From a virus (Duplodnaviria; Heunggongvirae; Uroviricota; Caudoviricetes), in the IMG/VR virus record IMGVR_UViG_3300046518_000157, positions 24,398 through 88,397 of that record: a stretch of 64,000 nucleotides of DNA, one strand, 5' to 3'. The notes beneath the pieces were generated by a model. That model had not been told where the DNA came from, did not search any database, and was given only the letters and a program-made list of their open reading frames with translations. Made by a program: the position numbers and the translations under genes. Shown in pieces: positions 4,932 to 56,790 of this stretch (position 1 is the stretch's first letter; each line of letters begins with the position of its first letter).

Positions 4932-4978
4932 GGTTTACCCTACTGTGCGTCTCCCTTATACCAAGGATTCGCAAGAAA

Positions 4979-4994
4979 CTGGACACATGTCCAG
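4979..4994. promoter_or_regulatory. Perfect 16-bp palindrome ctggacacatgtccag (operator-like)
   Basis: Read directly from the sequence; a second near-identical palindrome lies at 5512-5527. Confidence 0.5.
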
Positions 4995-5511
4995 AAATGT
5001 CCGTTTTCATTGAAACGAGAAAACGTATATAGAACAATGAGTTATAGCACTGCTGTCCAATTTGTCCAGAAACTTTTTAGAAAACTGGACAGGCTCTAAG
5101 CCTTTGTATATAAGGCTCACAGCGATTTTGTCCAGTTTTTTTCACTTTTTTCTAAAAACCATACCTCACTTTCTATTAGAAATAAAAAACTAGCAAAAAG
5201 GTTACCTCACCCTCTTATATATAAATATATTTTTTAAAAGTTCAAATATAAATATATATATAGTACCCCCATATTCCTGGACTGTTAGGGTGAACCCTAT
5301 GTTGTTACTTTTTTGTTTTTTTATTTATCAAATAGAAAGTGAGGTATGGTTTTTGGAAAAAAGGCCAAAAAACTGGACAATCGGGCTCTCAGCCTTATGC
5401 AGCAAGGGTTTCAGCTGTCCAGTTTTTTTTAGAGAAATTGGACAAACTGGACACGCTCCCCGCAAACCCTTTGTTTATAAGGCTCTAAGGTTTTTGGACA
5501 AAATGAGATTT

Positions 5512-5527
5512 CTGGACATGTGTCCAG
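5512..5527. promoter_or_regulatory. Second perfect 16-bp palindrome ctggacatgtgtccag
   Basis: Read directly from the sequence. Confidence 0.5.
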
Positions 5528-5543
5528 TTTTTTCTCAGAAGGC

Positions 5544-5570: not shown

Positions 5571-5593
5571 TTTACTTACTACAACCTTTCAAC

Positions 5594-7252
5594 TTACAGG
5601 TTGCCAGCAATGAATTCCGAAATGAACCTCGGAGTTGCAGTATCGAAACCAACCACGTCAAGCATATTGCGGTCAGTCGGATCAGCAATGCTGAAGTTGT
5701 TCACAGCCATACCAACCGTGATCAGCTTAGCTTCAGGCTTGTTCATACCCTGACGATACTTGCGTACCGCTTGGAACACGTGTTGGCCGCCAGACCACGT
5801 TTCGTTATCCGTGTAAACACAGACAGCGTCAACGTCCCACTTATGTTGAAGCGCATACTCGAACGGCAATGCACAATTCGTACCACCGAAGTTGTGCGCA
5901 CGAACCTTACCACACGCCGTAGCCAAAGTATCTTTGGATGTGATCCCGAGATCCTTAAAGCCATTAGCGCCGCTCGTGAAACCACGGATCTCAGTCCACG
6001 GCTCTGTGCGAGCGGTGACCATAGCCATGATTGCCGTACCTTCAGCACAGCTCAACAGAGGCGTATTGCTGATCGGAGCACTCATTGAACCCGATACATC
6101 CAGGCCCAACAGAATGTTCTTACCGGACGGCTCTATCGCTTCAAACGAAACATAGAACGCATCTTCCAGATCAGCCACAATGGTACGGGCCGGAGTCCAT
6201 ACGAGTGAACCCTTATCGCCACGGCCTTGCGCGTAGATCTTCTGCGCAACTACGATTGACATCGGATGCAGACGTTCCTTGCGGATGGCTTCAACATCGT
6301 GGAGCTTGGCAGATACAATCTTGCTCGTTTCCGAGAAAGGCTTGATCAAACCAACTGCCGTGAGCTTGTTCAGGTTACGAACCAGCGCACCCAGACCCAT
6401 GTGAGGCACAAGAGCTTCCCAAACCTTCGGGTCATTCTTCTGCTCATTCGGAATCATTTCGTGCGTGAGCTTGAAATCCTGGATCAGCTTAATCAATGTC
6501 TTCGTATCTGCAGTCTTGGCTTGCTCTGCAGCAATCAGAAGTTGAGGCACGAGATCGCCTTGCGACAGCGACTCTGCACCCTTGTTGATAAACTTGTACA
6601 GGTTCTGACGAACCGGATCGGTGCCAGGCTTGACGTGAGCCAGACGCATGATGTCCTTGTGGGACCAGCCGTCACGTTGCTTGTACTTTACGATCTGGAA
6701 CGCAAGCTTATCGGTATCCTTTGAGGAATACCAGTTCTGAACTACATTCTTGAGCGAACGGCCCCAACCACGCATACCGTTTGCGAATGCAACGAAGTGC
6801 ATGAAGTGCGTGCCAGTACGAGCCACGAGATTCAGCTTATCCTTCGCATACAGCTTGGTTGCCACGTCGCCGTGGGTGAAGACCAGAGCCATGACCAGAA
6901 GCGCATAGTCATTGTTCTTTGCACGGCCAGCTTGGCTGATCTCTACCACACGATCAACCACAACCTTGCCATTTGCCTTGATGAGCTTCACGATCTCATC
7001 AGTGTTCTGCTTCGTGATATCCTTTTCGCTAGCGTAGAACGTACCGCCGCTCGTGCCGATGATAAGGAATCGATCCAGCTTTTGAAGGCCAGAGATCTCA
7101 AATACAAAGCCGCCAGCGTTGTTCTTGACCTGAGCTACCGGAGCGTTGCCAGCCGGGCGATTCTGCGGCGTGGTACGTGCAACAGTACGGGTATTGGTAT
7201 TCTTTGCGAGGGTATTGAATGACATTTGAGGCTCCTTAAGTTTAGGGAACAA
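5594..7252 (-). CDS. rsr: Ro60/Rsr ortholog (TROVE domain plus C-terminal vWA domain)
   Basis: RFLIIGTSGGTFYASEKD...ISQAGRAKNNDYALLVMALV matches the Ro60 TROVE signature (human Ro60 FLCFGSEGGTYY...[20 protein letters not shown]). A vWA MIDAS motif (LLGLDVSGSM) is present. RBS GGAG sits upstream of the ATG. Confidence 0.8.
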   Translation of the reverse strand: MFPKLKEPQMSFNTLAKNTNTRTVARTTPQNRPAGNAPVAQVKNNAGGFVFEISGLQKLDRFLIIGTSGGTFYASEKDITKQNTDEIVKLIKANGKVVVDRVVEISQAGRAKNNDYALLVMALVFTHGDVATKLYAKDKLNLVARTGTHFMHFVAFANGMRGWGRSLKNVVQNWYSSKDTDKLAFQIVKYKQRDGWSHKDIMRLAHVKPGTDPVRQNLYKFINKGAESLSQGDLVPQLLIAAEQAKTADTKTLIKLIQDFKLTHEMIPNEQKNDPKVWEALVPHMGLGALVRNLNKLTAVGLIKPFSETSKIVSAKLHDVEAIRKERLHPMSIVVAQKIYAQGRGDKGSLVWTPARTIVADLEDAFYVSFEAIEPSGKNILLGLDVSGSMSAPISNTPLLSCAEGTAIMAMVTARTEPWTEIRGFTSGANGFKDLGITSKDTLATACGKVRAHNFGGTNCALPFEYALQHKWDVDAVCVYTDNETWSGGQHVFQAVRKYRQGMNKPEAKLITVGMAVNNFSIADPTDRNMLDVVGFDTATPRFISEFIAGNL

Positions 7253-7265
7253 AGTTTAAATCGAC

Positions 7266-7305
7266 TAAAAAAAGAAGGTCTGAATCCAAGATGGAAACAG
7301 ACCTT
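7266..7305 (-). terminator. Rho-independent terminator at the 3' end of the tRNA-like ncRNA block
   Basis: 9-bp stem gaaggtctg/cagaccttc followed, on the minus strand, by a T7 run. Confidence 0.55.
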
Positions 7306-7689
7306 CGGGTACTTCTAACTTACCACATGTGGTGCTGAACTGGGGACATCTAGGGATCCTGGTTACCAGGGCCCTGGAGATGCTCCTCGTGCTCATCATC
7401 TCCGCTCCAGTAGAGGCGTAGCCGACACTGGGCGGAAAGCTATAACTTAGAGTTACTCTAAGCCAGCAATCTAACAACTGCTTGAGATACGTAAGTCTAG
7501 TGGTACTGCGGTCATGACCTGACCTCATGCTGGGCTGTAAAGCGACCCAGCGGATCTCCGGCTGTAGTGGAGTAGCGCAAGACGTAGCGCAGCGGAGTCT
7601 TGTGGTACGCAACGGAAGCGGGAAGTTGATACCTACAGAGTTACTCTATAGTCACTTTCCAAACTGCAAAGTTAAATACGAAAGGTCAT

Positions 7690-7835
7690 GATGGGGATAC
7701 GGGCAAAAGGCGTGCTAGAAGATTTTACGTGCTCTATCCGCTAAGCTATACAACCCTCAAGGCTGCAGTTGGATTCGAACCAACGCCACGACTTCCGAAT
7801 AGTGATAATCTAACACTAACGGCCCGTAAAGAGGA
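7690..7835 (-). ncRNA. Y-RNA-like tRNA mimic, unit 1 (permuted tRNA-like domain)
   Basis: Minus strand carries a T-arm (GTTGG-TTCGAAT-CCAAC, plus 7772-7790), then a closed 7-bp acceptor-like stem-loop (TGCAGCC-ttgag-GGTTGTA), then TA, then a D-arm (GCTT-AGCGGATA-GAGC, plus about 7735-7755). It is preceded by a GGGCCGTT...GATTATC element. Confidence 0.5.
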
Positions 7836-7899
7836 AGTGAGCAAATGAAAGTGATCTGGAGGAAATCTTAAAAGGATAATCCAAATCGAAACGGCTCAC

Positions 7900-8045
7900 A
7901 AAATTGAAGCTGAACAAAAGGCGTACTGGAATTTTTAGCGCTCTACCAACTGAGCTATGCGGCAACCCGTAAGGCAACCACAGAAGGACTCGAACCTTCG
8001 ACCTCTCTATTAACAGTAGATAAACCAATACAAGCGGTTCAGCGA
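7900..8045 (-). ncRNA. Y-RNA-like tRNA mimic, unit 2
   Basis: Minus strand carries a T-arm (GAAGG-TTCGAGT-CCTTC, plus 7988-8005), then an acceptor-like stem closed by an 11-nt loop (TGTGGTT...TGCCGCA), then TA, then a D-arm (GCTC-AGTTGGTAG-AGC, plus 7933-7960). There is no anticodon arm. Confidence 0.5.
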
Positions 8046-8289
8046 AACTGAGAAAACGAACAAATGTTTGCCAAGGGAGATACTGGATTCACCAGCTTAG
8101 CTTTAGCTCAAGCAGAGTACAACAATGTTAACCCTCTTGAAGTATCTCTCGTTTCCGAGTACTGCTGATACGACTGTCGTTTAACTTTCCGATAGTAGAT
8201 AACCCTTAATGCGTTCGGTTCGTTTGAAAATTGATACGGGCAAAGAAATGAAACTAGGGGAATCAGTAAGAGGGATAACCTAGCATCGA

Positions 8290-8445
8290 ACGGCCCGTGA
8301 AATGGGAATGGACAAGTAATCGAATGGATCTGGAATCGCTGTGTTTACCAATTTCACCAACCCCGCAACTGCAGCGGAGTACAGGACTCGAACCTGTAAT
8401 TTGCGATTTGGGTTTAGATAAACCATTCTATCGGTCCATGAACTT
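8290..8445 (-). ncRNA. Y-RNA-like tRNA mimic, unit 3
   Basis: Minus strand carries a GGACCGA...GGTTTATC 5' element, a T-arm (ACAGG-TTCGAGT-CCTGT, plus 8381-8400), a 7-bp closed acceptor-like hairpin (ACTCCGC-tgcagtt-GCGGGGT), then TG and a D-arm-like GTG-AAATTGGTAAA-CAC. The 3' tail can pair with the 5' element with an internal loop. Confidence 0.5.
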
Positions 8446-8566
8446 TAATTCAGGCACTGACTCTTTAGAATCAATGCGAGGATTAAAGCGAGGGTGAGCA
8501 AAAAGAATAATGCTGGGGAGTAATCACCAATTGATAACCCAACATAAGAACGGCTCACTAAGGTTA

Positions 8567-8575
8567 TTATACCAT
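8567..8575 (-). promoter_or_regulatory. Variant of the recurring promoter-like motif (minus aTGGTATAAt) inside the ncRNA block
   Basis: Resembles the TTGGTATAAG motif found upstream of most genes; oriented to drive minus-strand transcription through the tRNA-like modules. Confidence 0.35.
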
Positions 8576-8699
8576 TACTTCTTAAATTATTGAAAGCGAA
8601 TTTTGAACTGGAAGATTTTTTGGCAGATAATCCAATTCGACGGCTCTCGAAACTTTTACAACTATAAGCTTGAACACATTCTGTGCAGAACCTACGACG

Positions 8700-9200
8700 G
8701 TCTCTTCCAACCAGGGGTGCCTGGCCAAGAGGACGACGTCGTACCACAGCTCCAGAATTAGCTTTACCTAGCTACAAGCTAGGTAGAGTCTTTGCTTTGC
8801 CTTTCGGAAAAGCAACGTAGAGCACTGTTGCAGATACTCTCTGGCTTCCAACTTAACCCTTTCCCTAAAGAACGGATATCGCTATTGAACCAGTTTGATA
8901 CTTCAAACTCTGTGCGACCCGAAGGTCGTTGTTCATGATGAACTCATGCGGTGCTTGATGTCCATCACCTGCAGCTCATAACTTATAGTTAACTATATTA
9001 GATGAGCTGTTCTCGAACCCAGAGCATCTCGGTCCCTGGGTTTCGCTGCAGGCGAAGACAACTTTCGAAGAATGTTACATACTTCTAGTAACGTTGTCGT
9101 TACTTCTATACTTCATCATGCCCCCAAAAGGGGTTCAAAAAGCAATTCTGTAGGATAACCCCAGGTTGCTCAATCAAGGGAAGGAGAAAATGTCCTACTC
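8700..9200. ncRNA. Highly structured non-coding region (nested stems with UUCG/GNRA-type tetraloops); strand and boundaries uncertain
   Basis: Nested inverted repeats include cctgcag.../...ctgcagg, cagctcat/atgagctg, cgaacccag/ctgggtttcg, cgacc-cgaa-ggtcg and ccagg-ggtg-cctgg. No ORF with any coding signature. Confidence 0.35.
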
Positions 9201-9214
9201 ACCATGCACAGCTA

Positions 9215-9385
9215 TTACGTCAACATCGAGAGTCTATCACGAGTATTGTCAGTAAGCCAACAACGTGGAAACTCTAGTGATGTGATTTCGGGATTGTCCT
9301 TAGTCGCCAGGTATTTACCCTGAGTATCTTCGATCAGAGCAAAGCCTTCTTCGTACTCTACAACGCTAATGATTTCATTAAACAT
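9215..9385 (-). CDS. Possible 57-aa small ORF (MFNEIISVVEYEEGFALIEDTQGKYLATKDNPEITSLEFPRCWLTDNTRDRLSMLT)
   Basis: Hand-translated; below the ORF-track length cutoff. Confidence 0.2.
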   Translation of the reverse strand: MFNEIISVVEYEEGFALIEDTQGKYLATKDNPEITSLEFPRCWLTDNTRDRLSMLT

Positions 9386-9411
9386 TTTGAATCGCCCTCT
9401 GTTGTTCCCGA

Positions 9412-9450
9412 GATAAAAAACAGAAAGGAGCGTAGCTATATATACGCTCC
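9412..9450 (-). terminator. Rho-independent terminator downstream of the HTH gene
   Basis: Hairpin ggagcgtagc-tatata-tacgctcc followed, on the minus strand, by CTTTCTGTTTTTTAT. Confidence 0.5.
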
Positions 9451-9484
9451 GTCGAATACTACTATAAGCGATTTATTCTTTTTC

Positions 9485-9772
9485 TTACACTACGGTAAGT
9501 TCTTGCGTAATGAAGTCTTGCGGCGTAACATCTGCTGCGTTAGCCAGCTTGACCAGCGTCGAGAGTTGCGGACGATAGTTACCAGCCAGAGCACCAAGGC
9601 GGCTGAACTTTTCAATGCGACGGATAGTGCTTTCTGAGAGCTTGGTTGCAGCTGCCATATCACTGATCGTCACTTCGCTTTCAAGACGGAGATTGACAGT
9701 GTTGCGAACTACGTTACGTGCTGCTGTTTGAATATTGAGTGCTGACATCTTGAACCTAAAACAAAGCCACAT
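9485..9772 (-). CDS. Helix-turn-helix (XRE-like) transcriptional regulator
   Basis: TISDMAAATKLSESTIRRIEKF is a typical HTH segment. The true start is probably an internal Met (MSALNIQ...). Confidence 0.5.
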   Translation of the reverse strand: MWLCFRFKMSALNIQTAARNVVRNTVNLRLESEVTISDMAAATKLSESTIRRIEKFSRLGALAGNYRPQLSTLVKLANAADVTPQDFITQELTVV

Positions 9773-9824: not shown

Positions 9825-9853
9825 CTTATACCAACAAGTACTAAATTATTGAA

Positions 9854-10066
9854 TTAAGAGAAGGGTAAACCTCTGTTCTCTCGCCTCTCATAATACTCTT
9901 TCAATCGCTGCTGTTCCTGTCTATTATACTCAGCGATTTCACTAGTGACTTGAGAACGTCCTTCCTTAATTCCTCGTAAGTACTCTGACCTTCCGTACTC
10001 AGCGATTTCTTCTTCACTCATACTTCTCTTTTTCAGTCCAGAGAATACGTCCTTGATATTCCTCAC
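9854..10066 (-). CDS. Hypothetical small protein
   Basis: 70-aa ORF; the real start may be the internal Met (MSEEEIAEY...). Confidence 0.35.
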   Translation of the reverse strand: MRNIKDVFSGLKKRSMSEEEIAEYGRSEYLRGIKEGRSQVTSEIAEYNRQEQQRLKEYYERRENRGLPFS

Positions 10067-12719: not shown

Positions 12720-12849
12720 AGATCGGCCAAAGAATGGAACCGATAATATCTTCCAGTACTTCGCTTATACCATCCTGTTCGTAAAAGATTGACAACATCA
12801 GGAAGTAAGCCACTGCAAGACAGAGGTAGATGTGGACAAACGTATCCAT
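12667..12849 (-). CDS. Small membrane protein
   Basis: 60-aa hydrophobic ORF. Confidence 0.3.
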   Translation of the reverse strand: MDTFVHIYLCLAVAYFLMLSIFYEQDGISEVLEDIIGSILWPICVFMDLFPRRKPTDNLR

Positions 12850-17886: not shown

Positions 17887-17928
17887 CTACCCTAAACATA
17901 AAAGTAAGTACTATTCCTACAACTCTCT

Positions 17929-17938
17929 TATACCAAAA
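17929..17938 (-). promoter_or_regulatory. Promoter-like motif TTGGTATAAG (minus), upstream of gene 16306..17886
   Basis: Plus-strand cttataccaa. Confidence 0.45.
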
Positions 17939-19695: not shown

Positions 19696-19705
19696 CTTAT
19701 ACCAA
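19696..19705 (-). promoter_or_regulatory. Promoter-like motif TTGGTATAAG (minus)
   Basis: Plus-strand cttataccaa, 55 nt upstream of the start at 19640. Confidence 0.45.
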
Positions 19706-23187: not shown

Positions 23188-23197
23188 CTTATACCAA
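23188..23197 (-). promoter_or_regulatory. Promoter-like motif TTGGTATAAG (minus)
   Basis: Plus-strand cttataccaa, 60 nt upstream of the start at 23127. Confidence 0.45.
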
Positions 23198-24876: not shown

Positions 24877-24886
24877 CTTATACCAA
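24877..24886 (-). promoter_or_regulatory. Promoter-like motif TTGGTATAAG (minus)
   Basis: Plus-strand cttataccaa. Confidence 0.45.
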
Positions 24887-28348: not shown

Positions 28349-28358
28349 CTTATACCAA
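28349..28358 (-). promoter_or_regulatory. Promoter-like motif TTGGTATAAG (minus), upstream of the T-arm-containing non-coding region
   Basis: Plus-strand cttataccaa; the next protein-coding start lies about 430 nt downstream (27923). Confidence 0.4.
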
Positions 28359-31648: not shown

Positions 31649-31658
31649 CTTATACCAA
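31649..31658 (-). promoter_or_regulatory. Promoter-like motif TTGGTATAAG (minus), upstream of the paralog array
   Basis: Plus-strand cttataccaa at 31649-31658; a partial copy (cttatacaac) sits at 31636-31645. Confidence 0.45.
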
Positions 31659-33648: not shown

Positions 33649-33658
33649 CTTATACCAA
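33649..33658 (-). promoter_or_regulatory. Promoter-like motif TTGGTATAAG (minus)
   Basis: Plus-strand cttataccaa, about 130 nt upstream of the start at 33523. Confidence 0.4.
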
Positions 33659-46959: not shown

Positions 46960-46969
46960 CTTATACCAA
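46960..46969 (-). promoter_or_regulatory. Promoter-like motif TTGGTATAAG (minus), upstream of the tRNA cluster
   Basis: Plus-strand cttataccaa, 60 nt upstream of the 5' end of tRNA-Leu. Confidence 0.45.
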
Positions 46970-49533: not shown

Positions 49534-49538
49534 TCCTC

Positions 49539-49757
49539 TTATTCCCCTTCTATTCTATCCGCATCACTGACTCTTACTTCATCAGTGCCGAACAGATCGA
49601 AGAACGCTAGTGTGTATGCAGATGCTTTCTCATACCCTTTGTCATGGTAGTAGTCTCCGAACTCCTGGAGAATCTCACCGTCCATTTCGACAGTCACTTT
49701 CGTGTACATGTCGCTTTCTTCATTATCGAAATGTCTAACAATAACTAGATTGTACAT
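49539..49757 (-). CDS. Hypothetical small protein
   Basis: 72-aa ORF. Confidence 0.35.
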   Translation of the reverse strand: MYNLVIVRHFDNEESDMYTKVTVEMDGEILQEFGDYYHDKGYEKASAYTLAFFDLFGTDEVRVSDADRIEGE

Positions 49758-49765
49758 CTTCTACC

Positions 49766-52063
49766 TCAAATATGGCAAGCGCCACCTTCACAACCTGCAT
49801 CTGAATTATCCTCTACGAAACCGAGAATTTCTGCTTCGCCCGGCTTCTTTGTATTTTGGTAATAATGGTTTTTATTACCCAAGGAATAACTGTACATAAT
49901 GTCCTGACCAAGAGTTGCTGAATCAAGCTTTTCATCTTTAAAGAACTTCGGGTTATACGACATGTTTACAGAAATAGCTTGGTCTACATACTTCTGTAGA
50001 ACAGCGATTACTTCCAAATACCCACGTGGACTTCTTTGATCCCACAGCCAATCATAACTGTGTCTAAGTTCATCGATCTCCGGAACTGCAATCGGAGGTG
50101 CTGCGTCTTTAGATGACTTAACAATGATCGGACCCATTGCTGGCTCAACGCCATTGGTTTCGTTTGACAGCTGGCTTGAAGTCTCTGAGGGCATCAGAGC
50201 CATTACCGTGCTGTTACGAATACCATGCTTCTGGATCATTGCACGGAGCCAAGCCCAATCCATGCGTTCGACGTGCGGCAGGATCTTATCCAGCGCAGCA
50301 GTACGAGTCATGTTCGGAGTCCAGCCATCTGCATACTTTGTCTCTTTCCAAAGCGGGCAAGGGCCTTTCTCGATAGCCAGTTCCATCGACGCCTTAAGCA
50401 GATAGAACGACCAGGCTTCAGCAAACTCGTCAACCAGTTGCAGTGACATGCGGCTGTACGGCATACCCTTCTTTGCCAAGAAGTGAGCGAAGCCGATGAT
50501 ACCGATGCCAATAGGTCTACGAGCCATTGTAGACTGTCTTGCTGCCTCTACTGGGTAGTCTTGGTAGTCCAGTACTGAATCAGCCAGACGAACCGCTATA
50601 CGGCACGGAACTTCAAAGTCTGATGGCTTGTTAATCTTGCCCCAGTTCACAGCACCGAGTGTACAGATGCTAATCTCTGAAGGAAAGCCAGCTTTGATAT
50701 CGTCAAACGGAGTCGTCGGAAGAGTAATTTCAACGCACAGGTTCGTCATGTAAATGGGAACCTTGAACGAAGACTTATCATTGACGTGGTCAACGTTACT
50801 GATATAGATCCGGCCAGTGTTACTACGTTGTGTAATCAGATCATTAAAAAGCTTTTGTGCTGATACAGTACGACGACGAATGCTTTTATCTGCTTCATAC
50901 TTTTCATACAGATATTCAAAGGCAACTTGGTCTGCAAAGAATGCATCATACAGCCCTGGTACTTCATGTGGGCTGAACAGAGCCAGCTCTTTGTTCTCTT
51001 TAATACGCTTGTAAATGAACCTATTGAACTGAACACAGTAATCTGCTTGACGATTAGTCTGTTCTGCAGGAAGCGTTGAATCTTTAAGCAGAATTAGTTC
51101 TGGAGATTCGTAATGCCAAATCGGGAAGTTAAATGTTACCGCACCATCTCGCATACCACCTTGTGAACAACTTTTGGTTGTTGCCGTCGCTTGCTTAATA
51201 AACGGAATCAAACCAGTATGTACTGCTTCACCACCTTTAATAGGACAACCGAGGCCACGATTACGACCTACGTTTACACCTAGTCCAGCTTTGTTTGATA
51301 CGTATCGTTGAATCGCATGGTTAGATGCGCTGATACTATCAATGGTATCCCCCATGTCTACTAGAACACAGGATGAGAATTGTTTTAGAATTGTACGAAC
51401 ACCAGACATAATCGGGCTGGGTTCACTGATGTCAAATAGACTCAATGCGTCATACGCTTCTTTGATAAGTTCCATGCGGTTAGTTTCGTTGCGCAGTAAT
51501 ACTGCAGGAACGAGAATAAACGGAATCTGGAAACTTTCGTAAATCTGTTTTGTTACTCGATTCTTACTAAGGTACTTGACACGCATTTGTTCTGCGCCAG
51601 CTAGACGAAACAGTTCATCACGATCATGATCAACCATTTTATTAAGCTGTTTCCATTCTTCCTCGTTATACATACCGAGAATATCTGGATCATACCGGCC
51701 AATCTCTATATTTCGTTTTACAGTGTCATACAGAGCTGGAACTTTATATGAACCATATGCATCCTTACGTACGATAAAGGAGATGATCTTACCACCGACT
51801 TTATCATAATGTGACTTACCTTCGATCATCAGGCTTTTACAAGCTGAGACAATGAACTCGTTAATCTCACGAGTAGTCATATCATCATGAAAGTTCTTAG
51901 CGATTTCCATTTCCAATTCTGATGGAGAAACGCCTTCAATACCTTCACAACCATAAGCACATACTTTGTGAATCTTATTACGTTCTAGTTGAACCTTTTT
52001 ACCACTCTTCTTTGTTACATACTTCATTTGCGTTACTTCACTGTCTTGGTTTTCGATAATCAT
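49766..52063 (-). CDS. nrdA: Ribonucleotide reductase large (alpha) subunit (NrdA-like) with an N-terminal ATP-cone
   Basis: ATP-cone (VTKKSGKKVQLERNKIHKV), active-site NxCxE (MTNLCVEITLP) and a C-terminal Cys pair (CEGGACHI). Confidence 0.8.
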   Translation of the reverse strand: MIIENQDSEVTQMKYVTKKSGKKVQLERNKIHKVCAYGCEGIEGVSPSELEMEIAKNFHDDMTTREINEFIVSACKSLMIEGKSHYDKVGGKIISFIVRKDAYGSYKVPALYDTVKRNIEIGRYDPDILGMYNEEEWKQLNKMVDHDRDELFRLAGAEQMRVKYLSKNRVTKQIYESFQIPFILVPAVLLRNETNRMELIKEAYDALSLFDISEPSPIMSGVRTILKQFSSCVLVDMGDTIDSISASNHAIQRYVSNKAGLGVNVGRNRGLGCPIKGGEAVHTGLIPFIKQATATTKSCSQGGMRDGAVTFNFPIWHYESPELILLKDSTLPAEQTNRQADYCVQFNRFIYKRIKENKELALFSPHEVPGLYDAFFADQVAFEYLYEKYEADKSIRRRTVSAQKLFNDLITQRSNTGRIYISNVDHVNDKSSFKVPIYMTNLCVEITLPTTPFDDIKAGFPSEISICTLGAVNWGKINKPSDFEVPCRIAVRLADSVLDYQDYPVEAARQSTMARRPIGIGIIGFAHFLAKKGMPYSRMSLQLVDEFAEAWSFYLLKASMELAIEKGPCPLWKETKYADGWTPNMTRTAALDKILPHVERMDWAWLRAMIQKHGIRNSTVMALMPSETSSQLSNETNGVEPAMGPIIVKSSKDAAPPIAVPEIDELRHSYDWLWDQRSPRGYLEVIAVLQKYVDQAISVNMSYNPKFFKDEKLDSATLGQDIMYSYSLGNKNHYYQNTKKPGEAEILGFVEDNSDAGCEGGACHI

Positions 52064-52228
52064 TATTTGCCATTACTGTCTGAGTAGGGTCATGGACTTA
52101 TTCCATGACACGAATTCTTGGAGGGAATTCTTAGTATAACCGTTTCTCAGAATACTGCAGCAATGGCTTCGTCAGTATTTTTAGCACCGACATAATACCC
52201 ATACTACGTAATACTTTTCTTTTTCCGA

Positions 52229-52260
52229 CTAAAAAAAGAAGGTGCGAAATACCGCTACGC
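52229..52260 (-). terminator. Rho-independent terminator (shares the leader cgactaaaaaaagaagg with the terminator at 7266)
   Basis: Hairpin ggtgcg-aaataccgcta-cgcacc followed, on the minus strand, by a T7 run. Confidence 0.55.
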
Positions 52261-52279
52261 ACCCCCTCTCTTCCGTACT

Positions 52280-52633
52280 TTACTGAACTGCCTTAATGAG
52301 TTCATTCGACAGACGTTCTGCCAAAGCATTGTCTTGCGCTTCGGTAGGGTCGTCTTGATTCACAGGCTCACCAGTCGTAATGTAAAGCCAACGACCTTTC
52401 TTCAGAGCACCGATTTGGTTGGAGTCCGTAATTTCAGGACAGATTTCCCAACCAGGTTCGGTGCGAGGATGAAAACGACAATCCGTGGGAGCATTGTCAG
52501 GGCATGCGCAATAACGTGTCCGGATAGCTGTTGGATAAACAATAGCTGGACCTTCCGCGTTTGCGGCATTGAGACGGTCACGAAGACTGAACTCGAATGC
52601 CTGAATTTCTTCTACGTTTCTTTCAGACGACAC
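52280..52633 (-). CDS. Hypothetical Cys-containing protein
   Basis: 117-aa ORF; YCACPDNAPTDCRFHP...CPEI. Confidence 0.4.
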   Translation of the reverse strand: MSSERNVEEIQAFEFSLRDRLNAANAEGPAIVYPTAIRTRYCACPDNAPTDCRFHPRTEPGWEICPEITDSNQIGALKKGRWLYITTGEPVNQDDPTEAQDNALAERLSNELIKAVQ

Positions 52634-52956
52634 TTATTTCTCCTTATTGCACAAGTGTACTTGCAACTCGTTCCCGTTAGGGAGGCTCGGGTCGAGGACG
52701 GCGTAGCCGTTCTAAGTAGGGACCCGAAGTTTATTACCAGAAAGTTACTCGCTGGCCTTCGTTTTAAAACACTAAAACAAACACATACTTGCAAGCTACC
52801 GTAAAACATCTACGGTATTAAAGGTACTACTGGGGTAAACTCGTGGTTGTGTACCTGGTCTGGGTAAAGACATCCTTCGATGTCTTCCCAGAGAGTAAAA
52901 GAGGAAGTAGCTTCCTCTACCATCTGCTATTACGATGACTATACTTTACCCAGATA
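52634..52956 (-). ncRNA. Structured ~320-nt leader or ncRNA between a promoter-like motif and gene 52280..52633
   Basis: Multiple strong hairpins, including gcaagt-gt-acttgc, acggc-gta-gccgt nested inside cgggtc/gacccg, gaagacatc-cttc-gatgtcttc and gaggaag-ta-gcttcctc. No ORF. Confidence 0.35.
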
Positions 52957-52966
52957 CTTATACCAC
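52957..52966 (-). promoter_or_regulatory. Promoter-like motif (minus GTGGTATAAG)
   Basis: Plus-strand cttataccac. Confidence 0.4.
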
Positions 52967-52981
52967 GATTACGTCATTTAT

Positions 52982-55402
52982 TTAAAGACGCGGATCCATT
53001 TCTTTCTCTTGGTTGAGTTGCGAGATCATCTTCACAATCAACTCAGTCATTGCAGGACCGTTGTCAGCCGAAAGCATCTTCGTTGCCAGTTCGAACTCCT
53101 TGATAGAGACCTTCAGTTTACCACCAACTCGCTTCTGCTTGCACAGTGCTTCGTAGCGACGTTTGTAGTCGAAGCCATAGACGAGAGTCAGGTAATTTTC
53201 ATTCCGGACTTTCATATACGGTGCTACGTCTTCAGGTCCGGCGAGAGGTTTAATGACAACACCCTCCATGCCGTGTTCGATAGTCAGTTCCTTGAAGAAG
53301 TTTTCAGCCATTTGCAGCTGGCTCTCATCATCGAGATCGATGACCAGCCAGTCATCCCCATTCACTTCATCGAATGAGTCAGCTTGTTCAACGCGAGTAA
53401 ATACATTGCCATCGATTTTCAGAATTGCAAACGGCTTGTAATATGGCTCGCCAGTTGCGGAGTACAGATTCAGCGTATCCGAAAACGTCTTCAGATCGTT
53501 CTCAAGCAAATCCTGAGCATCGATCTTCTGCTTAAAGTCAAGCTTAGCAAATTCTTCGTCCTGAGCAAGTGTCGAAAGCTCATAGTGTACAAGACCTTCA
53601 TACGCTTTGAACTGCTCTTCAACAAGACCAGTACCAAGAGTCGTCCACGGCAGAAGCTCACCGTCCAGAATAAGTTCATCGAACGAATTCGGAAGGAACT
53701 TTTCTTCATACTCAGCAAGAAGCTTCTGAAGCATAACAGTAAGCTCTTCTGTCATGCGAATCTTGAATCCATTTCTGGAAACAAGGAAACACTTCTCCGG
53801 TTGACCGTGATACAGATACGCCTGACAACGTGAGCCCATGTACTTCGGTTGAATAGCAACCTGATCTACACCCTTGTCTTTGAAGTACTTAAGACCAGCT
53901 TCAAGGCTTTCGATCTTACCTTCGGTTGACGGAGCCGGAGCCATCGTACCAGAAATGTACTTAATGCCGTTCTTCAGCGTACGATTCAAAAACTTCATGT
54001 CGTCTGGAGACAACTTATAATCATAAATGCTGAAGGGACGCTCCTTCAAACCGATAGGTACGGTCAAGTCAGACTTCAACTCTTTTTGATGCTCGACCAG
54101 CGACTCGGTCTTGACATCGACGTAAACATATCGATTGTTTTTGTACGAAAACGCAGTAAGCTTGTTACCGTACACTGCTCCGGTATCCAGGAAGATCTTG
54201 TTACGGAACTCAATCTTACCGGCATTGTGAGCAACGTGACCGAATACATGAATAGGATGGTTACGAACAGCCTGATCGAAGATGAACTTGTACGCTTCAC
54301 GATAGTCTTTATCACGACGACCGAAAAGATTACGCTGCGCCTTAAGTGCATCATTGCTCAGCTTACCCAGATACTTGTTTTCACAAGGAGCATGGGTTAC
54401 ATACACGGTTCGTATATCCCGTCCAAATACTTTCAGGAACGGAGTAGAGTGATTGTCAAACAAGTCAACAAGCACGGCGGCAAGGTCAGGACGTTCCAGG
54501 AGAACCTTAAGTGAAGACATATACTTAGCCTCCAGTTCAAGATCAGGATTTTTGATTTCGCCCTTGATACGCTTCACAGCGTAGCTCTCATGGTTTCCGT
54601 GAATGATACGGCCACCTTCGTCAACAAACTTTGAAACCAGCCGAAGCATGTTCTCCGTGTCATTGCCTTTGTCTAGATAATCACCTACAAGAACGTTGAT
54701 ACTGTCCTTAGGCAACTTCTCCAGCATTTCAGTAAGACCCTTAACGTGCTCATGGGTATCACCGATGATGTTCAGCTCTTTGTTCGAAGTCAAGTACAAG
54801 CTGCTCTTGGCATAAACATCGAGGTCTTTGATTTCAACTTCGATATCAGCCCAGTACTTCGGATCACGTTCACGGATACGGATGTTTCCGTCGTGTTCTT
54901 TTCGGCCAAGGTTAGGAAGAACGTGCTGCTTAAAACGAGCTGCACTGCTGTCTACTACTAGCTTTTCTTCCGGCGTAGATTCAGACGAATATGACTTATT
55001 GGTGTACTCGAAAGTAACCAGTTCAGTACGATACTCGTTGGTTTCCGCAAGAGTCCTGACTTTCTTTCGGAACTCGTCGTTCATGCCAGTCGTATCAACG
55101 ATCACGAACTCGCTGTTGACAGGGAACATGATCGCAGCTTCAAGTTTCGCCATCAAGACCTTAAACGCGGCCTCTGAAGCCTCCGCCATGAGCGGGGAAT
55201 ACCGATGGAGGTTCTTATGGCCGTAAAGGCTCTCACGCTCGGAATCGGAGCTGATAATAGGAATTGCACAGCTCGCTCCAAGCCCTGCTTTGGCCATTTC
55301 TTCGCCAAGCGCAAGTTGAAGTTGGTGTGAGAACGTGCTCTTACCGCACATCGAAGGTCCGACGAGAATAAAAACGGTATGGAGCTTAGTTTCGATTTTC
55401 AT
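52982..55402 (-). CDS. pnkp: Polynucleotide kinase-phosphatase with a C-terminal ligase-like domain (bacterial Pnkp-type RNA repair enzyme)
   Basis: N-terminal P-loop (LVGPSMCGKST), a central calcineurin-like phosphoesterase (IIGDTHEH, GDYLDKGND, HGNHE), and a ~350-aa C-terminal domain with a candidate nucleotidyltransferase lysine (QPKYMGSR). Confidence 0.7.
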   Translation of the reverse strand: MKIETKLHTVFILVGPSMCGKSTFSHQLQLALGEEMAKAGLGASCAIPIISSDSERESLYGHKNLHRYSPLMAEASEAAFKVLMAKLEAAIMFPVNSEFVIVDTTGMNDEFRKKVRTLAETNEYRTELVTFEYTNKSYSSESTPEEKLVVDSSAARFKQHVLPNLGRKEHDGNIRIRERDPKYWADIEVEIKDLDVYAKSSLYLTSNKELNIIGDTHEHVKGLTEMLEKLPKDSINVLVGDYLDKGNDTENMLRLVSKFVDEGGRIIHGNHESYAVKRIKGEIKNPDLELEAKYMSSLKVLLERPDLAAVLVDLFDNHSTPFLKVFGRDIRTVYVTHAPCENKYLGKLSNDALKAQRNLFGRRDKDYREAYKFIFDQAVRNHPIHVFGHVAHNAGKIEFRNKIFLDTGAVYGNKLTAFSYKNNRYVYVDVKTESLVEHQKELKSDLTVPIGLKERPFSIYDYKLSPDDMKFLNRTLKNGIKYISGTMAPAPSTEGKIESLEAGLKYFKDKGVDQVAIQPKYMGSRCQAYLYHGQPEKCFLVSRNGFKIRMTEELTVMLQKLLAEYEEKFLPNSFDELILDGELLPWTTLGTGLVEEQFKAYEGLVHYELSTLAQDEEFAKLDFKQKIDAQDLLENDLKTFSDTLNLYSATGEPYYKPFAILKIDGNVFTRVEQADSFDEVNGDDWLVIDLDDESQLQMAENFFKELTIEHGMEGVVIKPLAGPEDVAPYMKVRNENYLTLVYGFDYKRRYEALCKQKRVGGKLKVSIKEFELATKMLSADNGPAMTELIVKMISQLNQEKEMDPRL

Positions 55403-56709
55403 GCTTGATCCTTGTTCTTAGTTACTACCACCATCGTCGAAGTAGCAATGTTATTTACACTATCACCGATTCCTTGAACAGAAATAGAGATTGCATGACC
55501 TTCCGAAACATTCCAGAACCAGTCACCGAATTCTTTAAGGCCCGGCTCCCACTTGTGATCATCATGACGGAACTGTGTTTCGTCCATCAGATAGTTCACA
55601 TTGAATTCCTTGTTAGGAACCGTGAGAATCAGCTTGTTGAAGTTAGTCTTCAGCACGGCTTGAATCAGCTCTGCTGCGACATCCTTTTCCATGTGTTCAA
55701 GCACTTCAGTGATGAGTACATCAGCTCCATCGAATAGAGCGCTGCAATCGTCAATTGATTCAGGAGTTGCTGCTTCTTTGAAGGTGATATTCTCAACTCC
55801 TCGACCACTGGCTTTCCCCACGGCGTTCTCACGTACTTCGTCATCCGCTTCATACGCAAGGATTTGTTCATACTTTGCACTGAGCGGGATCGAATAATTG
55901 AGTTCGCCGCACCCAATGTCAATGAGGACCGACCCTCCTCCCAAATGCGGGAAGATAGCCTCTTTACGTTGACTGAGAGTGTCCCCGTGCCAGAGGTTAA
56001 TACTGGGCGTATCGAGCAACGGCTTGTTTTTAGCAAAGGTTTCACGATTCGTAAACACATTCCGTTTAAAGAGGTATCGGATGAAGTAAGGTGCATCGAT
56101 GCGATTAATTGCATTGATGTACTTTTCAATGATATCTCCCTTAAGGTTGACGTAAATGCTCTTTGTCGTAACGCAGAACATCAAGAAAATAACCATTGCT
56201 GCATTCAGAAGATGATGAACACTAGGTCCGACAATGCGAACTTTGTATGCATGACCAGAAATCAGTTCTGCATGAAAGCTGTAGCCTTGATCGAAACCAA
56301 ACGGCCCATTGAAATGTTGCTCCATGTGCCTAAGCGTGCTTGCACTGCGAATCTCAACCGTAGTTTCGAGCCATGCGCTAAAAGGAACACTAGCATCTTC
56401 TTCCTGATGTTCTTTGAACGCAGTTGCCAGGCAGTTCGTCATCAGGCTAATCGGAAGGTACGGCGAAGCATAGCGAGTACGATCAAGATACTCAAACTCC
56501 TGGTCCCGCCCTTCGGCAAATGAGCAGTGCAGAGCATGATCCTTGAACCACAACCTAAAAGCTTGGTCTCCTTCTAGAAACCATCCGTACACTGAACCTT
56601 GTCGGATGGACTTCTTAAACGGATCTTTCGATTCACGAATCGTTGCGGGGTTTTTCTGAATGACCCAAGAAAACTTCGGGTTACTAGACCCAAGAGTAAG
56701 CACTGACAT
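55399..56709 (-). CDS. hen1: Hen1-like RNA 3'-terminal 2'-O-methyltransferase
   Basis: C-terminal Rossmann MTase motif I (VLIDIGCGE) with Hen1-type metal ligands (EVLEH ... RHDDH). A 4-nt overlap couples it to pnkp. Confidence 0.6.
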   Translation of the reverse strand: MSVLTLGSSNPKFSWVIQKNPATIRESKDPFKKSIRQGSVYGWFLEGDQAFRLWFKDHALHCSFAEGRDQEFEYLDRTRYASPYLPISLMTNCLATAFKEHQEEDASVPFSAWLETTVEIRSASTLRHMEQHFNGPFGFDQGYSFHAELISGHAYKVRIVGPSVHHLLNAAMVIFLMFCVTTKSIYVNLKGDIIEKYINAINRIDAPYFIRYLFKRNVFTNRETFAKNKPLLDTPSINLWHGDTLSQRKEAIFPHLGGGSVLIDIGCGELNYSIPLSAKYEQILAYEADDEVRENAVGKASGRGVENITFKEAATPESIDDCSALFDGADVLITEVLEHMEKDVAAELIQAVLKTNFNKLILTVPNKEFNVNYLMDETQFRHDDHKWEPGLKEFGDWFWNVSEGHAISISVQGIGDSVNNIATSTMVVVTKNKDQA

Positions 56710-56780
56710 TATTTAACCTTTTTGGAAGAGAGGTTTATGGACGACATAAATGATAGGACGAATCCTATCGTAATACTTCA

Positions 56781-56790
56781 CTTATACCAA
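56781..56790 (-). promoter_or_regulatory. Promoter-like motif TTGGTATAAG (minus), upstream of hen1-pnkp
   Basis: Plus-strand cttataccaa, 72 nt upstream of the start at 56709. Confidence 0.45.

What the first reader, a model, noticed from the sequence alone, without database searches (positions are those of the whole stretch)
4955..56790. Recurring minus-strand promoter-like motif TTGGTATAAG (14 copies)
The plus-strand decamer cttataccaa/c occurs at 4955, 9815, 17929, 19696, 23188, 24877, 28349, 31649, 33649, 37541, 46960, 52957 and 56781. A variant occurs at 8567. Every copy has the same orientation, lies in an intergenic gap, and sits 30-130 nt upstream of a minus-strand gene, tRNA cluster or ncRNA. 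The embedded TATAAG resembles a -10 box or phage late-promoter TATAAATA-type box. This defines the transcription-unit structure of the window.
Basis: seen in the sequence. Interest (0 to 1): 0.5.

Follow-up and report, generated by a model that had tools for sequence, protein, structure and literature searches.

The report
Phage-specific promoter motif TGGTATAAG
The repeated TGGTATAAG is real and is almost certainly the core of this phage's own promoters for its non-structural genes, shared by a barely described group of ~180-kb phages that carry a bacterial-type RNA polymerase and their own sigma factors.

Summary
TGGTATAAG occurs 16 times, all on the minus strand (0.26 expected), and 13 copies lie in the 12.5% of the window that is non-coding. 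Three listed coordinates are slightly off, and three copies inside ORFs were missed. The window is the non-late gene block of a ~181-kb phage.

The same 9-mer marks the same strand across a large phage clade with 39-55% GC: 86 copies versus 0 in 656 kb. It is the most frequent 8- and 9-mer of Salmonella phage Arash. Some sublineages use TGTTATAAG, so the clade consensus is T-15 G-14 n TATAAG-7. A conserved T-G(+1)-T-A follows 5 nt downstream, and a weak T(C/T)AA sits at -35.

This is extended -10 promoter geometry, but with an invariant G where sigma-70 needs T. A near-identical genome (99.55% over 19.4 kb) encodes a bacterial-type RNA polymerase. Arash packages that polymerase and a sigma factor in its virion.

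My best reading is a phage-specific early/middle promoter read by a phage sigma factor. It is not a T4-type late promoter: late genes in relatives carry a different motif, cTAAAATa. Which sigma and which core enzyme read the motif is inferred, not shown. No sigma gene was located in the window's own lineage.

The parts
105..113 (-). Variant site GGGTATAAG, intergenic, followed by aaaGGTATC
   Evidence: GGTATAAG without the T at -15 is common in Arash (12 of 30 sites).
4955..4963 (-). TGGTATAAG, 23 nt upstream of the dCMP-deaminase gene 4566-4931. The hairpin+T terminator 4994-4979 lies just upstream.
8566..8574 (-). Variant TGGTATAAT (T at -7) with TTCAAT at -35. It is followed by a strongly structured ~66-nt RNA (z = -4.3). 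It lies in the gene-poor region that holds the YrlA-like RNA.
   Evidence: 28-nt repeat shared with the 9825 site
9825..9833 (-). TGGTATAAG, 52 nt upstream of the Cro/C1-type HTH gene 9485-9772. TTCAAT at -35.
12764..12772 (-). TGGTATAAG inside a doubtful 60-aa ORF, 44 nt upstream of ORF 12414-12719. Possible internal promoter.
17927..17935 (-). TGGTATAAG, 40 nt upstream of the 526-aa ORF 16306-17886. TTAATT at -35.
19696..19704 (-). TGGTATAAG, 55 nt upstream of ORF 19284-19640. Terminator-like hairpin 19759-19742 just upstream.
23188..23196 (-). TGGTATAAG, 60 nt upstream of ORF 22660-23127. The predicted transcript starts with hairpin 23184-23155 followed by a T-run.
24877..24885 (-). TGGTATAAG, 56 nt upstream of ORF 24578-24820. 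Strong terminator 24933-24914 just upstream.
28349..28357 (-). TGGTATAAG heading a 425-nt stretch with no ORF before gene 26949-27923. Leader hairpin 28337-28318. TCAATT at -35.
31649..31657 (-). TGGTATAAG, 43 nt upstream of ORF 31057-31605. A second near-copy, TTGTATAAG, lies at 31636-31644.
33649..33657 (-). TGGTATAAG, 125 nt upstream of ORF 33131-33523
37541..37549 (-). TGGTATAAG, 25 nt upstream of the tRNA pair 37443-37515 / 37352-37426. TCAATT at -35.
46960..46968 (-). TGGTATAAG, 58 nt upstream of tRNA-Leu 46815-46901. Hairpin 46994-46974 upstream and leader hairpin 46951-46934 downstream.
52957..52965 (-). TGGTATAAG, 147 nt upstream of ORF 52612-52809. TTAAAT at -35 with a 17-bp spacer. 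The motif is invariant in three relatives while the spacer diverges.
56781..56789 (-). TGGTATAAG, 71 nt upstream of the Hen1-Pnkp RNA-repair genes (55399-56709, 52982-55402). Invariant in three relatives.
57530..57538 (-). TGGTATAAG in frame (Trp-Tyr-Lys) in the middle of the 334-aa gene 56966-57970. No counterpart was seen in relatives L001-L003. Probably not functional.
   Evidence: the gene is called independently
63081..63089 (-). TGGTATAAG in the 3' end of ORF 63035-63517, 111 nt upstream of the UDG/3'-5' exonuclease gene 61716-62969. Possible internal promoter for the split DNA polymerase genes.

Best explanation
TGGTATAAG is the core element of this phage's own promoters for its non-late genes: nucleotide metabolism, replication, RNA repair and tRNAs.

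Anatomy: a weak T(C/T)AA(T) element at about -35, a 17-bp spacer ending in T-15 G-14 G-13, the hexamer T-12 A T A A G-7, five variable bases, then a conserved T(-1) G(+1) T A where transcription most likely starts. This is the geometry of a sigma-70-family 'extended -10' promoter. The base that host sigma-70 needs at -7 (T) is replaced by an invariant G.

I infer that the motif is read by a phage-encoded sigma-70-family factor and not by the host's primary sigma. The most likely reader is the Gp10-type sigma that phage Arash carries in its virion. It would act with the phage's own bacterial-type RNA polymerase (beta, beta' N-half, beta' C-half), delivered with the DNA, so that these genes are transcribed from the start of infection independently of host sigma-70. 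A second phage sigma (Gp196 type) would then serve the late cTAAAATa promoters.

Shown: the motif, its anatomy, its conservation, and the polymerase gene in a near-identical genome.
Inferred: promoter activity, the start site, which sigma and which core enzyme read it, and the timing.
For: Motif statistics and placement:
- 16 vs 0.26 expected, one strand only, 13/16 intergenic.
- It precedes tRNAs as well as ORFs, so it is not a translation signal.
- Terminator hairpins lie directly upstream of sites 4955, 19696, 24877 and 46960.

Anatomy:
- T[CT]AA at -35/-34 occurs in 10/17 sites vs 9.4% background, P = 6e-7.
- T-1 G+1 T+2 (A+3) is conserved at the same distance in the window and in Arash.
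- In Arash, 29/30 GGTATAAG sites are followed by a Shine-Dalgarno sequence and a start codon, mostly 27-29 nt downstream.

Footprints:
- The 9-mer is invariant while neighbouring spacer and leader sequence diverge, in three relatives with ~80% PolA identity.

Clade-wide conservation independent of host composition:
- TGGTATAAG 86 vs 0 and TGTTATAAG 14 vs 3 by strand, in 36 loci, 656 kb, GC 39-55%. Canonical TGnTATAAT shows no strand bias (14 vs 11).
- CTTATACC is the most frequent 8-mer and CTTATACCA the most frequent 9-mer of Arash.
- Vibrio phage D69 uses TGTTATAAG.
- In divergent intergenic regions the motif sits at the 5' edge of the leftward unit, back to back with the late motif. There is no upstream transcript there to process.

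Not host type:
- G at -7 in every copy. The A-11 and T-7 bases are the ones bound in sigma pockets (PMC7598289).
- Generic sigma-70 sites are not enriched in the window: 24 vs 29.4, 16 vs 22.6, 37 vs 35.1.
- Only 2 TATAAT hexamers lie on the minus strand in intergenic DNA, against 17 TATAAG.

Phage transcription machinery:
- Contig Ga0495648_0000041 (181,476 bp) is 99.55% identical to the window over 19.4 kb. It encodes RNAP beta (1133 aa) and a beta' N-terminal fragment on the opposite strand, with 5 more TGGTATAAG copies, all on the non-RNAP strand.
- Arash Gp206 is a bacterial-type beta fused to the beta' N-half. Gp10 and Gp196 are sigma-70-family proteins.
- Gp206, Gp216, Gp217 and Gp10 are abundant in Arash virions (PMC10585845).
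Against: - No transcription start sites or expression data exist for any member of the clade.
- No sigma homologue was found in the parts of the window's own lineage that I could fetch. The nearest relative with the RNAP gene, a Gp196-type sigma gene and the motif on one contig has an RNAP beta only 66% identical.
- The assignment of the motif to Gp10 rather than Gp196 rests on virion presence, on Gp196 having canonical -10-reading residues, and on gp196 having its own sigma-70-type promoter. None of this is a direct test.
- Sequence differences in Gp10 between TGG- and TGT-using lineages are confounded by phylogeny.
- An extended -10 TG can compensate for a poor hexamer, so weak use by host sigma-70 cannot be excluded.
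- Virion packaging of the polymerase is known only for Arash.
Confidence: 0.55

Rival explanations
1. Middle-class promoter. A phage sigma made early (Gp196 type, whose gene carries a host-type promoter) redirects an RNA polymerase core, host or phage, to TGnTATAAG. This would resemble SPO1 gp28 or T4 gp55. The virion enzyme would use some other, unidentified signal.
For: - gp196 homologues are preceded by TTGACT-17-TACTAT, or by TTCAAT-N15-TGTTATAAT in the TGT lineages, so they look host-transcribable.
- Gp196-type sigma is widespread in the clade, including the split-beta lineages closest to the window.
- The motif heads replication and nucleotide-metabolism genes, which are 'middle' genes in many phages.
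Against: - No other abundant motif exists in the non-late block that could serve the injected enzyme.
- Gp196 keeps the canonical YAGWW -10-reading segment. That fits the T-7-containing late motif TAAAAT better than TATAAG.
- Under this model Gp10 would have to drive late genes although it is encoded in a late-strand structural operon and is present in virions.
Confidence: 0.22
2. Ordinary host-dependent early promoters. The host's primary sigma holoenzyme reads TGnTATAAG as an extended -10 promoter, and the G at -7 is merely tolerated.
For: - TG at -15/-14, A at -11 and 17-bp spacing to a -35-like element all match the sigma-70 class.
- One window site (8566) and the gp196 promoters of the TGT lineage carry T at -7 in an otherwise identical context.
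Against: - G at -7 is invariant in more than 100 copies across hosts with 39-55% GC, while TGnTATAAT shows no strand bias.
- T-7 is one of the two bases held in sigma pockets (PMC7598289).
- The clade encodes its own polymerase and sigma factors.
- Genuine sigma-70-consensus promoters do exist in the window, but only before three tRNA units. The phage therefore 'knows' the host consensus and does not use it here.
Confidence: 0.15
3. Not a promoter. The motif is an RNA-level signal on the transcribed strand (an endonuclease processing site) or the binding site of a DNA-binding regulator.
For: - Strand specificity and intergenic location would also fit an RNA processing site.
- Hairpins often follow the motif.
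Against: - A -35-like element lies at fixed DNA spacing.
- Terminators lie immediately upstream.
- Some copies sit at the 5' edge of divergent units where no upstream transcript exists.
- The match to -10 geometry is close, and a start-site-like TGTA is conserved.
Confidence: 0.05

Closest known systems
Bacterial extended -10 promoters (TGnTATAAT, read by sigma-70 regions 3.0 and 2.4)
   Same: TG one base upstream of the hexamer, T-12 and A-11, a weak or dispensable -35 at 17±1 bp, and a likely start 6-7 nt after the hexamer (class definition from established knowledge).
   Different: The last hexamer base is an invariant G instead of the nearly invariant T-7. Position -13 is fixed within a lineage (G here, T in D69-like phages). 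Canonical TGnTATAAT is not enriched or strand-biased in the clade.
Early promoters of jumbo phages with virion-packaged multisubunit RNA polymerases (phiKZ, AR9, phiR1-37)
   Same: A highly conserved ~10-nt motif centred near -10. It can be found bioinformatically upstream of early operons in a phage that encodes a multisubunit polymerase carried in the virion (PMC7598289; PMC10585845).
   Different: Those polymerases are highly diverged and split into 4-5 pieces. They have no sigma homologue (PMC7824862; PMC13282480), and their motifs are AT-rich and unrelated in sequence. Here the enzyme is close to bacterial beta/beta' (E = 7e-72 to bacterial beta). It co-occurs with sigma-70-family genes, and the motif has sigma-type geometry. 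The genomes are ~180 kb, below the jumbo threshold.
T4-type late promoters (TATAAATA, gp55/gp33)
   Same: A single A/T-rich -10-like element without a strong -35, read by a phage-encoded sigma-like factor (established knowledge).
   Different: The sequence differs. The motif here heads non-late genes and is absent from the late strand. The clade's late genes carry cTAAAATa, which resembles the T4 late box more closely than the motif under study does.
Promoters specific to phage-encoded sigma factors used with host core (SPO1 gp28/gp34, phiEco32 gp36), and the extended -10 middle/late promoters of Thermus phage P23-45
   Same: A phage-specific consensus distinct from the host's, used to switch transcription to a class of phage genes (from my own knowledge, not checked here).
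   Different: Those phages have no polymerase core of their own. Here a phage core enzyme exists and, in Arash, is in the virion together with a sigma.

Membership tests
Sigma-70-type extended -10 promoter | TG dinucleotide at -15/-14, one base upstream of the -10 hexamer | tested here: met
   G-14 in 17/17 window sites and T-15 in 94%. The clade consensus is TGnTATAAG, with n = G or T by lineage.
Sigma-70-type extended -10 promoter | -10 hexamer with T-12, A-11 and T-7 | tested here: not met
   T-12 and A-11 are invariant, but -7 is G in 16/16 window copies, in 30/30 Arash sites and in 100 of the early-strand clade copies. A scan requiring T at that position finds none of the sites.
Sigma-70-type extended -10 promoter | -35 element, often weak, at 17±1 bp | tested here: inconclusive
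   T[CT]AA at -35/-34 occurs in 10/17 window sites (P = 6e-7). The signal is much weaker in Arash, and the element is not TTGACA-like beyond T and A.
Sigma-70-type extended -10 promoter | Transcription starts 6-8 nt downstream and depends on a sigma-70-family protein | not testable with these tools
   Only indirect evidence: T-1 G+1 T A is conserved at a fixed distance, and sigma-family genes exist in the clade.
T4-type late promoter | Consensus TATAAATA at -10 | tested here: not met
   The motif is TGGTATAAG. There is no TATAAATA-like enrichment in the window.
T4-type late promoter | Located upstream of late (structural) genes | tested here: not met
   The motif heads dCMP deaminase, Hen1/Pnkp, polymerase-exonuclease, tRNA and similar genes. 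There are 0 copies on the structural-gene strand in 656 kb of relatives.
Early promoters of phages with virion multisubunit RNA polymerase (phiKZ/AR9 class) | Conserved ~10-nt motif near -10 upstream of early operons | tested here: met
   Class description from PMC7598289.
Early promoters of phages with virion multisubunit RNA polymerase (phiKZ/AR9 class) | Phage encodes a multisubunit RNA polymerase | tested here: met
   RNAP beta (P0149) and a beta' N-fragment lie on contig Ga0495648_0000041, which is 99.55% identical to the window over 19.4 kb. The window itself does not contain these genes.
Early promoters of phages with virion multisubunit RNA polymerase (phiKZ/AR9 class) | Polymerase is packaged in the virion and injected | not testable with these tools
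   Known only from published mass spectrometry of Arash virions (PMC10585845).
Early promoters of phages with virion multisubunit RNA polymerase (phiKZ/AR9 class) | Enzyme of the phiKZ type: beta and beta' split into several diverged pieces, no sigma homologue | tested here: not met
   The Arash enzyme matches bacterial beta at 7e-72 and the cyanobacterial gamma subunit at 3e-46. Sigma-70-family genes co-occur with it on at least 8 contigs.

The most novel reading that the evidence does not exclude
The motif is the early-promoter signature of a widespread but essentially undescribed clade of ~170-190-kb phages. These phages inject a bacterial-type RNA polymerase together with a sigma-70-family factor. 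The invariant G at -7 (with lineage-specific -13) is the specificity switch. It makes phage promoters invisible to host sigma-70 and host promoters invisible to the phage holoenzyme. The result is a self-contained, orthogonal sigma/core/promoter system carried in a virion. This combination is said not to exist among known phage multisubunit polymerases (PMC7824862, PMC13282480).
Probability: 0.4. Interest if true: 0.8.

Novelty: new variant of a known kind. Interest (0 to 1): 0.6.

Why it matters
- The motif gives a first transcription map for a phage group with one described isolate (Arash) and no promoter information. That group is common in metagenomes: more than 350 RNAP-beta relatives at E <= 1e-100.
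- It yields a simple testable hypothesis about sigma specificity. A T-to-G change at -7, the base held in a sigma pocket, may be how a phage holoenzyme is insulated from host promoters.
- If a phage sigma with a phage-encoded bacterial-type core reads the motif, the clade fills a gap. On one side are phages that bring only sigma factors. On the other are jumbo phages with sigma-less, highly diverged polymerases.
- Such a system would also offer a compact orthogonal promoter/sigma/polymerase set.
- Practically, TGnTATAAG together with cTAAAATa can be used to recognise and orient contigs of this clade.

Tried and rejected
- Megablast of 12 kb of the window against 50,697 phage records found no match. 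Relatives were reached only through proteins.
- A full-text search for the literal motif returned only primers and unrelated sequences. The Arash paper never mentions promoters. Searches for YerA41 promoters and for virion polymerase plus sigma found nothing on this clade.
- I tried to locate a sigma gene in the window's own lineage by:
  - tblastn and HMM searches of all held regions;
  - a profile search plus cluster look-ups;
  - walking 10 kb beyond the window's left end.
  None found it. The reachable contigs are partial, or the regions fetched are too short.
- An exact look-up of the PolA protein failed. The PolA region later proved only ~80% identical to the near-identical contig.
- No homologue of the 'Srd anti-sigma factor' annotated in D69 exists in the window or in Arash.
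- Rfam found nothing in the 425-nt ORF-free leader after site 28349.
- The T4-late-promoter reading was rejected on gene class and strand.
- The RNA-processing-site reading was rejected on the -35 spacing, the upstream terminators and the divergent-region copies.
- Covariation between Gp10 sequence and the -13 base was examined but set aside as phylogenetically confounded.

Full report
**1. The observation**

The plus-strand decamer CTTATACCAA occurs 11 times against 0.10 expected. Its 9-nt core, read on the minus strand as TGGTATAAG, occurs 16 times. Every copy is on the minus strand. Dinucleotide-preserving shuffles give 0.26 copies on average and never more than 2. It is the most frequent 8-, 9- and 10-mer of that strand.

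Four copies were missed:
- 12764, 57530 and 63081, which lie inside maximal ORFs;
- a GGGTATAAG variant at 105.

I defined coding sequence generously, as maximal minus-strand ORFs of at least 50 aa plus the tRNAs. On that definition only 12.5% of the window is non-coding, yet 13 of the 16 exact copies lie there. They sit 23-147 nt upstream of the next minus-strand ORF or tRNA. The one exception is 28349, at 425 nt.

**2. What the window is**

All genes run on the minus strand. The window holds:
- at least 22 tRNAs;
- ribonucleotide reductase, ThyX, NAMPT and NMNAT/Nudix;
- dCMP deaminase;
- a split family-A DNA polymerase (a UDG/exonuclease gene and a polymerase gene);
- RNase H;
- Hen1/Pnkp RNA-repair genes;
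- a Ro60 (TROVE) protein.

This is the non-structural block of a large phage. No nucleotide-level relative exists among 50,697 phage records. The closest isolates by PolA are Salmonella phage Arash (47% aa identity) and Vibrio phages D69, D148 and D181.

An exact look-up of the window's RNR protein leads to JGI contig 3300046524 Ga0495648_0000041, 181,476 bp long. That contig is 99.55% identical to the window over 19.4 kb. Over the PolA region it is only about 80% identical, so the two genomes are mosaic relatives and not the same sequence.

**3. Anatomy of the sites**

I aligned the sites on the motif and numbered positions as if TATAAG were a -10 hexamer (-12 to -7). On that numbering:
- T is at -15 in 94% of sites.
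- G-14, G-13 and TATAAG are invariant.
- Five poorly conserved bases follow, then T(-1) 76%, G(+1) 65%, T(+2) 53%.
- Upstream, T[CT]AA starts at -35 or -34 in 10 of 17 sites, against a 9.4% background (P = 6e-7). This gives hexamers such as TTCAAT, TCAATT and TTAAAT at a 17-bp spacing.

Hairpin-plus-T terminators lie directly upstream of sites 4955, 19696, 24877 and 46960. Two sites feed tRNAs and not ORFs (37541 and 46960), so the motif is not a translation signal.

Of the three copies inside ORFs:
- 12764 and 63081 lie 44 and 111 nt before the next gene start and may be internal promoters.
- 57530 is an in-frame Trp-Tyr-Lys in mid-gene, has no counterpart in relatives, and is probably fortuitous.

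**4. Conservation elsewhere**

Three IMG/VR contigs with about 80% PolA identity, and one with 58%, carry the 9-mer only on the coding strand. At two orthologous positions the 9-mer is invariant while the adjacent spacer and leader have diverged.

In Arash (180,819 bp, 53% GC):
- CTTATACC is the most frequent 8-mer of the genome, and 30 of the 31 GGTATAAG copies are on the minus strand.
- TGGTATAAG occurs 18 times, all on the minus strand.
- The sites share the same downstream T-1 G+1 T A.
- 29 of 30 sites are followed by a Shine-Dalgarno sequence and a start codon, most often 27-29 nt downstream.

I then counted 36 loci (656 kb, GC 39-55%) drawn from the clade defined by Arash's RNA polymerase gene:

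| Motif | Non-late strand | Other strand |
|---|---|---|
| TGGTATAAG | 86 | 0 |
| TGTTATAAG | 14 | 3 |
| TGnTATAAT (canonical) | 14 | 11 |

Vibrio phage D69 and loci L018 and L022 use TGTTATAAG instead. The clade consensus is therefore T-15 G-14 n T A T A A G-7.

**5. The transcription machinery of the clade**

Arash Gp206 (1525 aa) is a bacterial-type beta subunit fused to the N-terminal half of beta'. It matches Pfam Rpb2_6 at 2.8e-56 and also Rpb1_1/Rpb1_2. Its best solved relatives are bacterial beta (7e-72) and the cyanobacterial gamma subunit (3e-46). Gp216 is the C-terminal half of beta', and Gp217 is a SNF2 helicase.

Arash also has two sigma-70-family genes:
- Gp10 (234 aa) has regions 2-3 and an HTH-like C-terminus. 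It hits SigA at about 1e-4.
- Gp196 has a canonical ...LTYAGWWV... region 2.3.

Published virion mass spectrometry lists Gp206 as the most abundantly detected protein, together with Gp216, Gp217 and Gp10. Gp196 is absent from the part of that table seen (PMC10585845).

Distribution of the polymerase:
- 53 IMG/VR loci carry it.
- More than 350 proteins in the large collection match the beta subunit at E <= 1e-100.
- Among isolates, only Arash and D69/D148/D181 have it.
- At least eight long contigs carry both the polymerase and a Gp10-type sigma.

For the window's own lineage:
- Contigs L003 and L002 also carry the beta gene (L060, L065).
- The near-identical contig Ga0495648_0000041 encodes beta (P0149, 1133 aa) and a beta' N-fragment on the strand opposite to the window's genes. 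Five further TGGTATAAG copies lie there, all on the non-polymerase strand.

I could not locate a sigma gene in this lineage. The regions I could fetch do not contain one. The nearest relative showing the RNAP gene, a Gp196-type sigma gene and the motif on one contig has a beta 66% identical to that of the window's sublineage.

Reviews state that known phage multisubunit polymerases lack sigma homologues, and that sigma-encoding large phages lack polymerases (PMC7824862; PMC13282480).

**6. A second promoter class**

In Arash, the plus-strand genes (structural genes, portal, beta' C-half) are preceded by cTAAAATa about 25-35 nt before the start codon. In the polymerase-region loci, CTAAAATA occurs 40 times on that strand and 5 times on the other. 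The same element precedes plus-strand genes in L122. The window has none.

In divergent intergenic regions the two motifs lie back to back, as in ...CTTATACCCTAAAATA.... This places TGnTATAAG at the 5' edge of a transcription unit and argues against an RNA-processing role.

The gp196 gene probably starts at Met60. It is preceded by a host-type promoter:
- TTGACT-17-TACTAT in the Arash lineage;
- TTCAAT-N15-TGTTATAAT in the TGT lineage.

**7. Interpretation**

The geometry is that of a sigma-70-family extended -10 promoter: TG at -15/-14, A at -11, a 17-bp spacing to a weak -35, and a start-like purine 6-7 nt after the hexamer.

The defining T at -7 is replaced by G in every copy. T-7 is one of the two bases held in sigma pockets (PMC7598289).
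- The G is conserved across phages whose genomes range from 39 to 55% GC.
- Canonical forms show no strand bias.
- Generic sigma-70-type sites are not enriched in the window.
- The window does have three consensus-quality host-type promoters, but only ahead of tRNA units.

The clade carries its own bacterial-type core and sigma factors. I therefore conclude that TGnTATAAG is a phage-specific promoter read by a phage sigma.

The most coherent assignment is as follows:
- Virion-delivered polymerase plus Gp10 reads TGnTATAAG from the start of infection.
- Gp196, made from its host-type promoter, reads the T-7-containing cTAAAATa late class. That class includes the polymerase and structural operons whose products are packaged.

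This assignment is an inference. The alternative, with Gp196 reading TGnTATAAG as a middle class, is not excluded. Weak use by host sigma-70 also remains possible.

**8.

The late-promoter analogy is not. The statement that the motif defines the window's transcription units is only partly right.

As a kind of element, a phage-specific promoter consensus is known. The new points are:
- the sigma-type architecture with an invariant G at -7;
- its conservation across a large and almost undescribed clade;
- its association with a phage-encoded bacterial-type polymerase plus sigma factors.

I rate it a new variant of a known kind, with interest 0.6.

Noticed in passing
window 7907-8028 (-), weaker 7731-7788 (-); Ro60/TROVE gene 5594-7252 (-): A full-length but sub-threshold match to the Y-RNA-like family YrlA (39.8 bits, E = 2e-6, model 1-114). 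It lies just upstream of a phage Ro60 orthologue, in a ~2-kb gene-poor stretch (7265-9484). This suggests a phage-borne Ro60/Y-RNA module.
   Followed up: partly
window 4973-5533: A ~560-bp ORF-free region built as nested inverted repeats: 108-nt arms 5093-5200/5308-5415 and 34-nt arms 4973-5006/5500-5533. It contains 10 of the window's 15 CTGGACA/TGTCCAG heptamers. TGTCCAGTTTTTTT also appears next to a promoter in relatives L001/L002. It may be an origin, an operator array or a bidirectional terminator cluster. Unexplained.
   Followed up: partly
window 26628-26601, 38789-38761, 45364-45335 (all -): Three near-consensus host-type promoters: TTGAAA-16-TATAAT, TTGACA-17-TAAACT and TTGACA-18-TAAAAT. 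They lie directly upstream of tRNA-Lys, the CTA-anticodon tRNA and the tRNA-Asn cluster, in a window where such sites are otherwise not enriched. Some tRNA units may therefore be transcribed by host polymerase.
   Followed up: no
window 38676-38751 (-), 37443-37515 (-), 31674-32291 (-): An amber-suppressor-type tRNA (anticodon CTA), a tRNA with an odd anticodon loop, and a protein with an RF-1 (peptide-release-factor) domain. No in-frame TAG problem was seen in the window's ORFs. Stop-codon reassignment in late genes was not examined.
   Followed up: no
L006-L009 (Arash), L010-L041, L122: A second strand-specific motif, cTAAAATa, lies 25-35 nt upstream of late-strand genes (structural, portal, beta' C-half). 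CTAAAATA occurs 40 vs 5 times by strand in 32 loci. It is a candidate late promoter and lies back to back with the early motif in divergent spacers.
   Followed up: partly
L008 ~20780-20835 (Arash 120,780-120,835); L129, L132, L133, L137, L139, L140: The Gp196-type sigma gene probably starts at Met60 of the annotated protein. It is preceded by a conserved sigma-70-consensus promoter (TTGACT-17-TACTAT). In TGT-type lineages the promoter is TTCAAT-N15-TGTTATAAT, which is the early motif with T at -7.
   Followed up: partly
L006 11588-11595 (+) and L090-L098 ~3697-3704: The only late-strand GGTATAAG in Arash sits 4 nt before the ATG of gp9, the gene preceding the virion sigma gp10. It is conserved in relatives down to 61% sigma identity. 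It could be a leaderless early promoter for the sigma operon, or just a ribosome-binding context.
   Followed up: partly
window 60013-62697 vs L114 1-2691: The window is 99.55% identical to contig Ga0495648_0000041 over 39766-59159 but only 79.7% over the DNA polymerase genes. A recent exchange of the polymerase module between co-occurring relatives seems likely.
   Followed up: no
window 23184-23155, 28337-28318, 46951-46934, 52918-52900, 56769-56752 (-); L002 ~5020-5060, L003 ~5580-5615: Many predicted transcripts begin with a stem-loop at or near +1, several followed by a U-run. In L002/L003 this looks like a full intrinsic terminator right after the promoter. These may be 5' stabilisers or attenuators. 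z-scores are modest except after site 8566 (z = -4.3).
   Followed up: partly
L122 10001-17509; L008 30093-34670: The polymerase gene layout varies within the clade. Beta and the beta' N-half are fused in Arash (1525 aa). In the window's lineage they are separate genes with five small ORFs between them. Some loci have extra insertions: the matches span 5.5-6.4 kb, and a homing endonuclease is annotated in D148/D181. The beta' split point resembles the cyanobacterial gamma/beta' split.
   Followed up: no
window 52982-56709 (-), 10014-10742 (-): An RNA-repair set: a Pnkp-like kinase/phosphatase/ligase (806 aa), a Hen1 methyltransferase (436 aa), and a HAD domain of 'Swiss Army Knife' RNA-repair proteins. 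With about 22 tRNAs, this suggests defence against host tRNA-cleaving systems.
   Followed up: no
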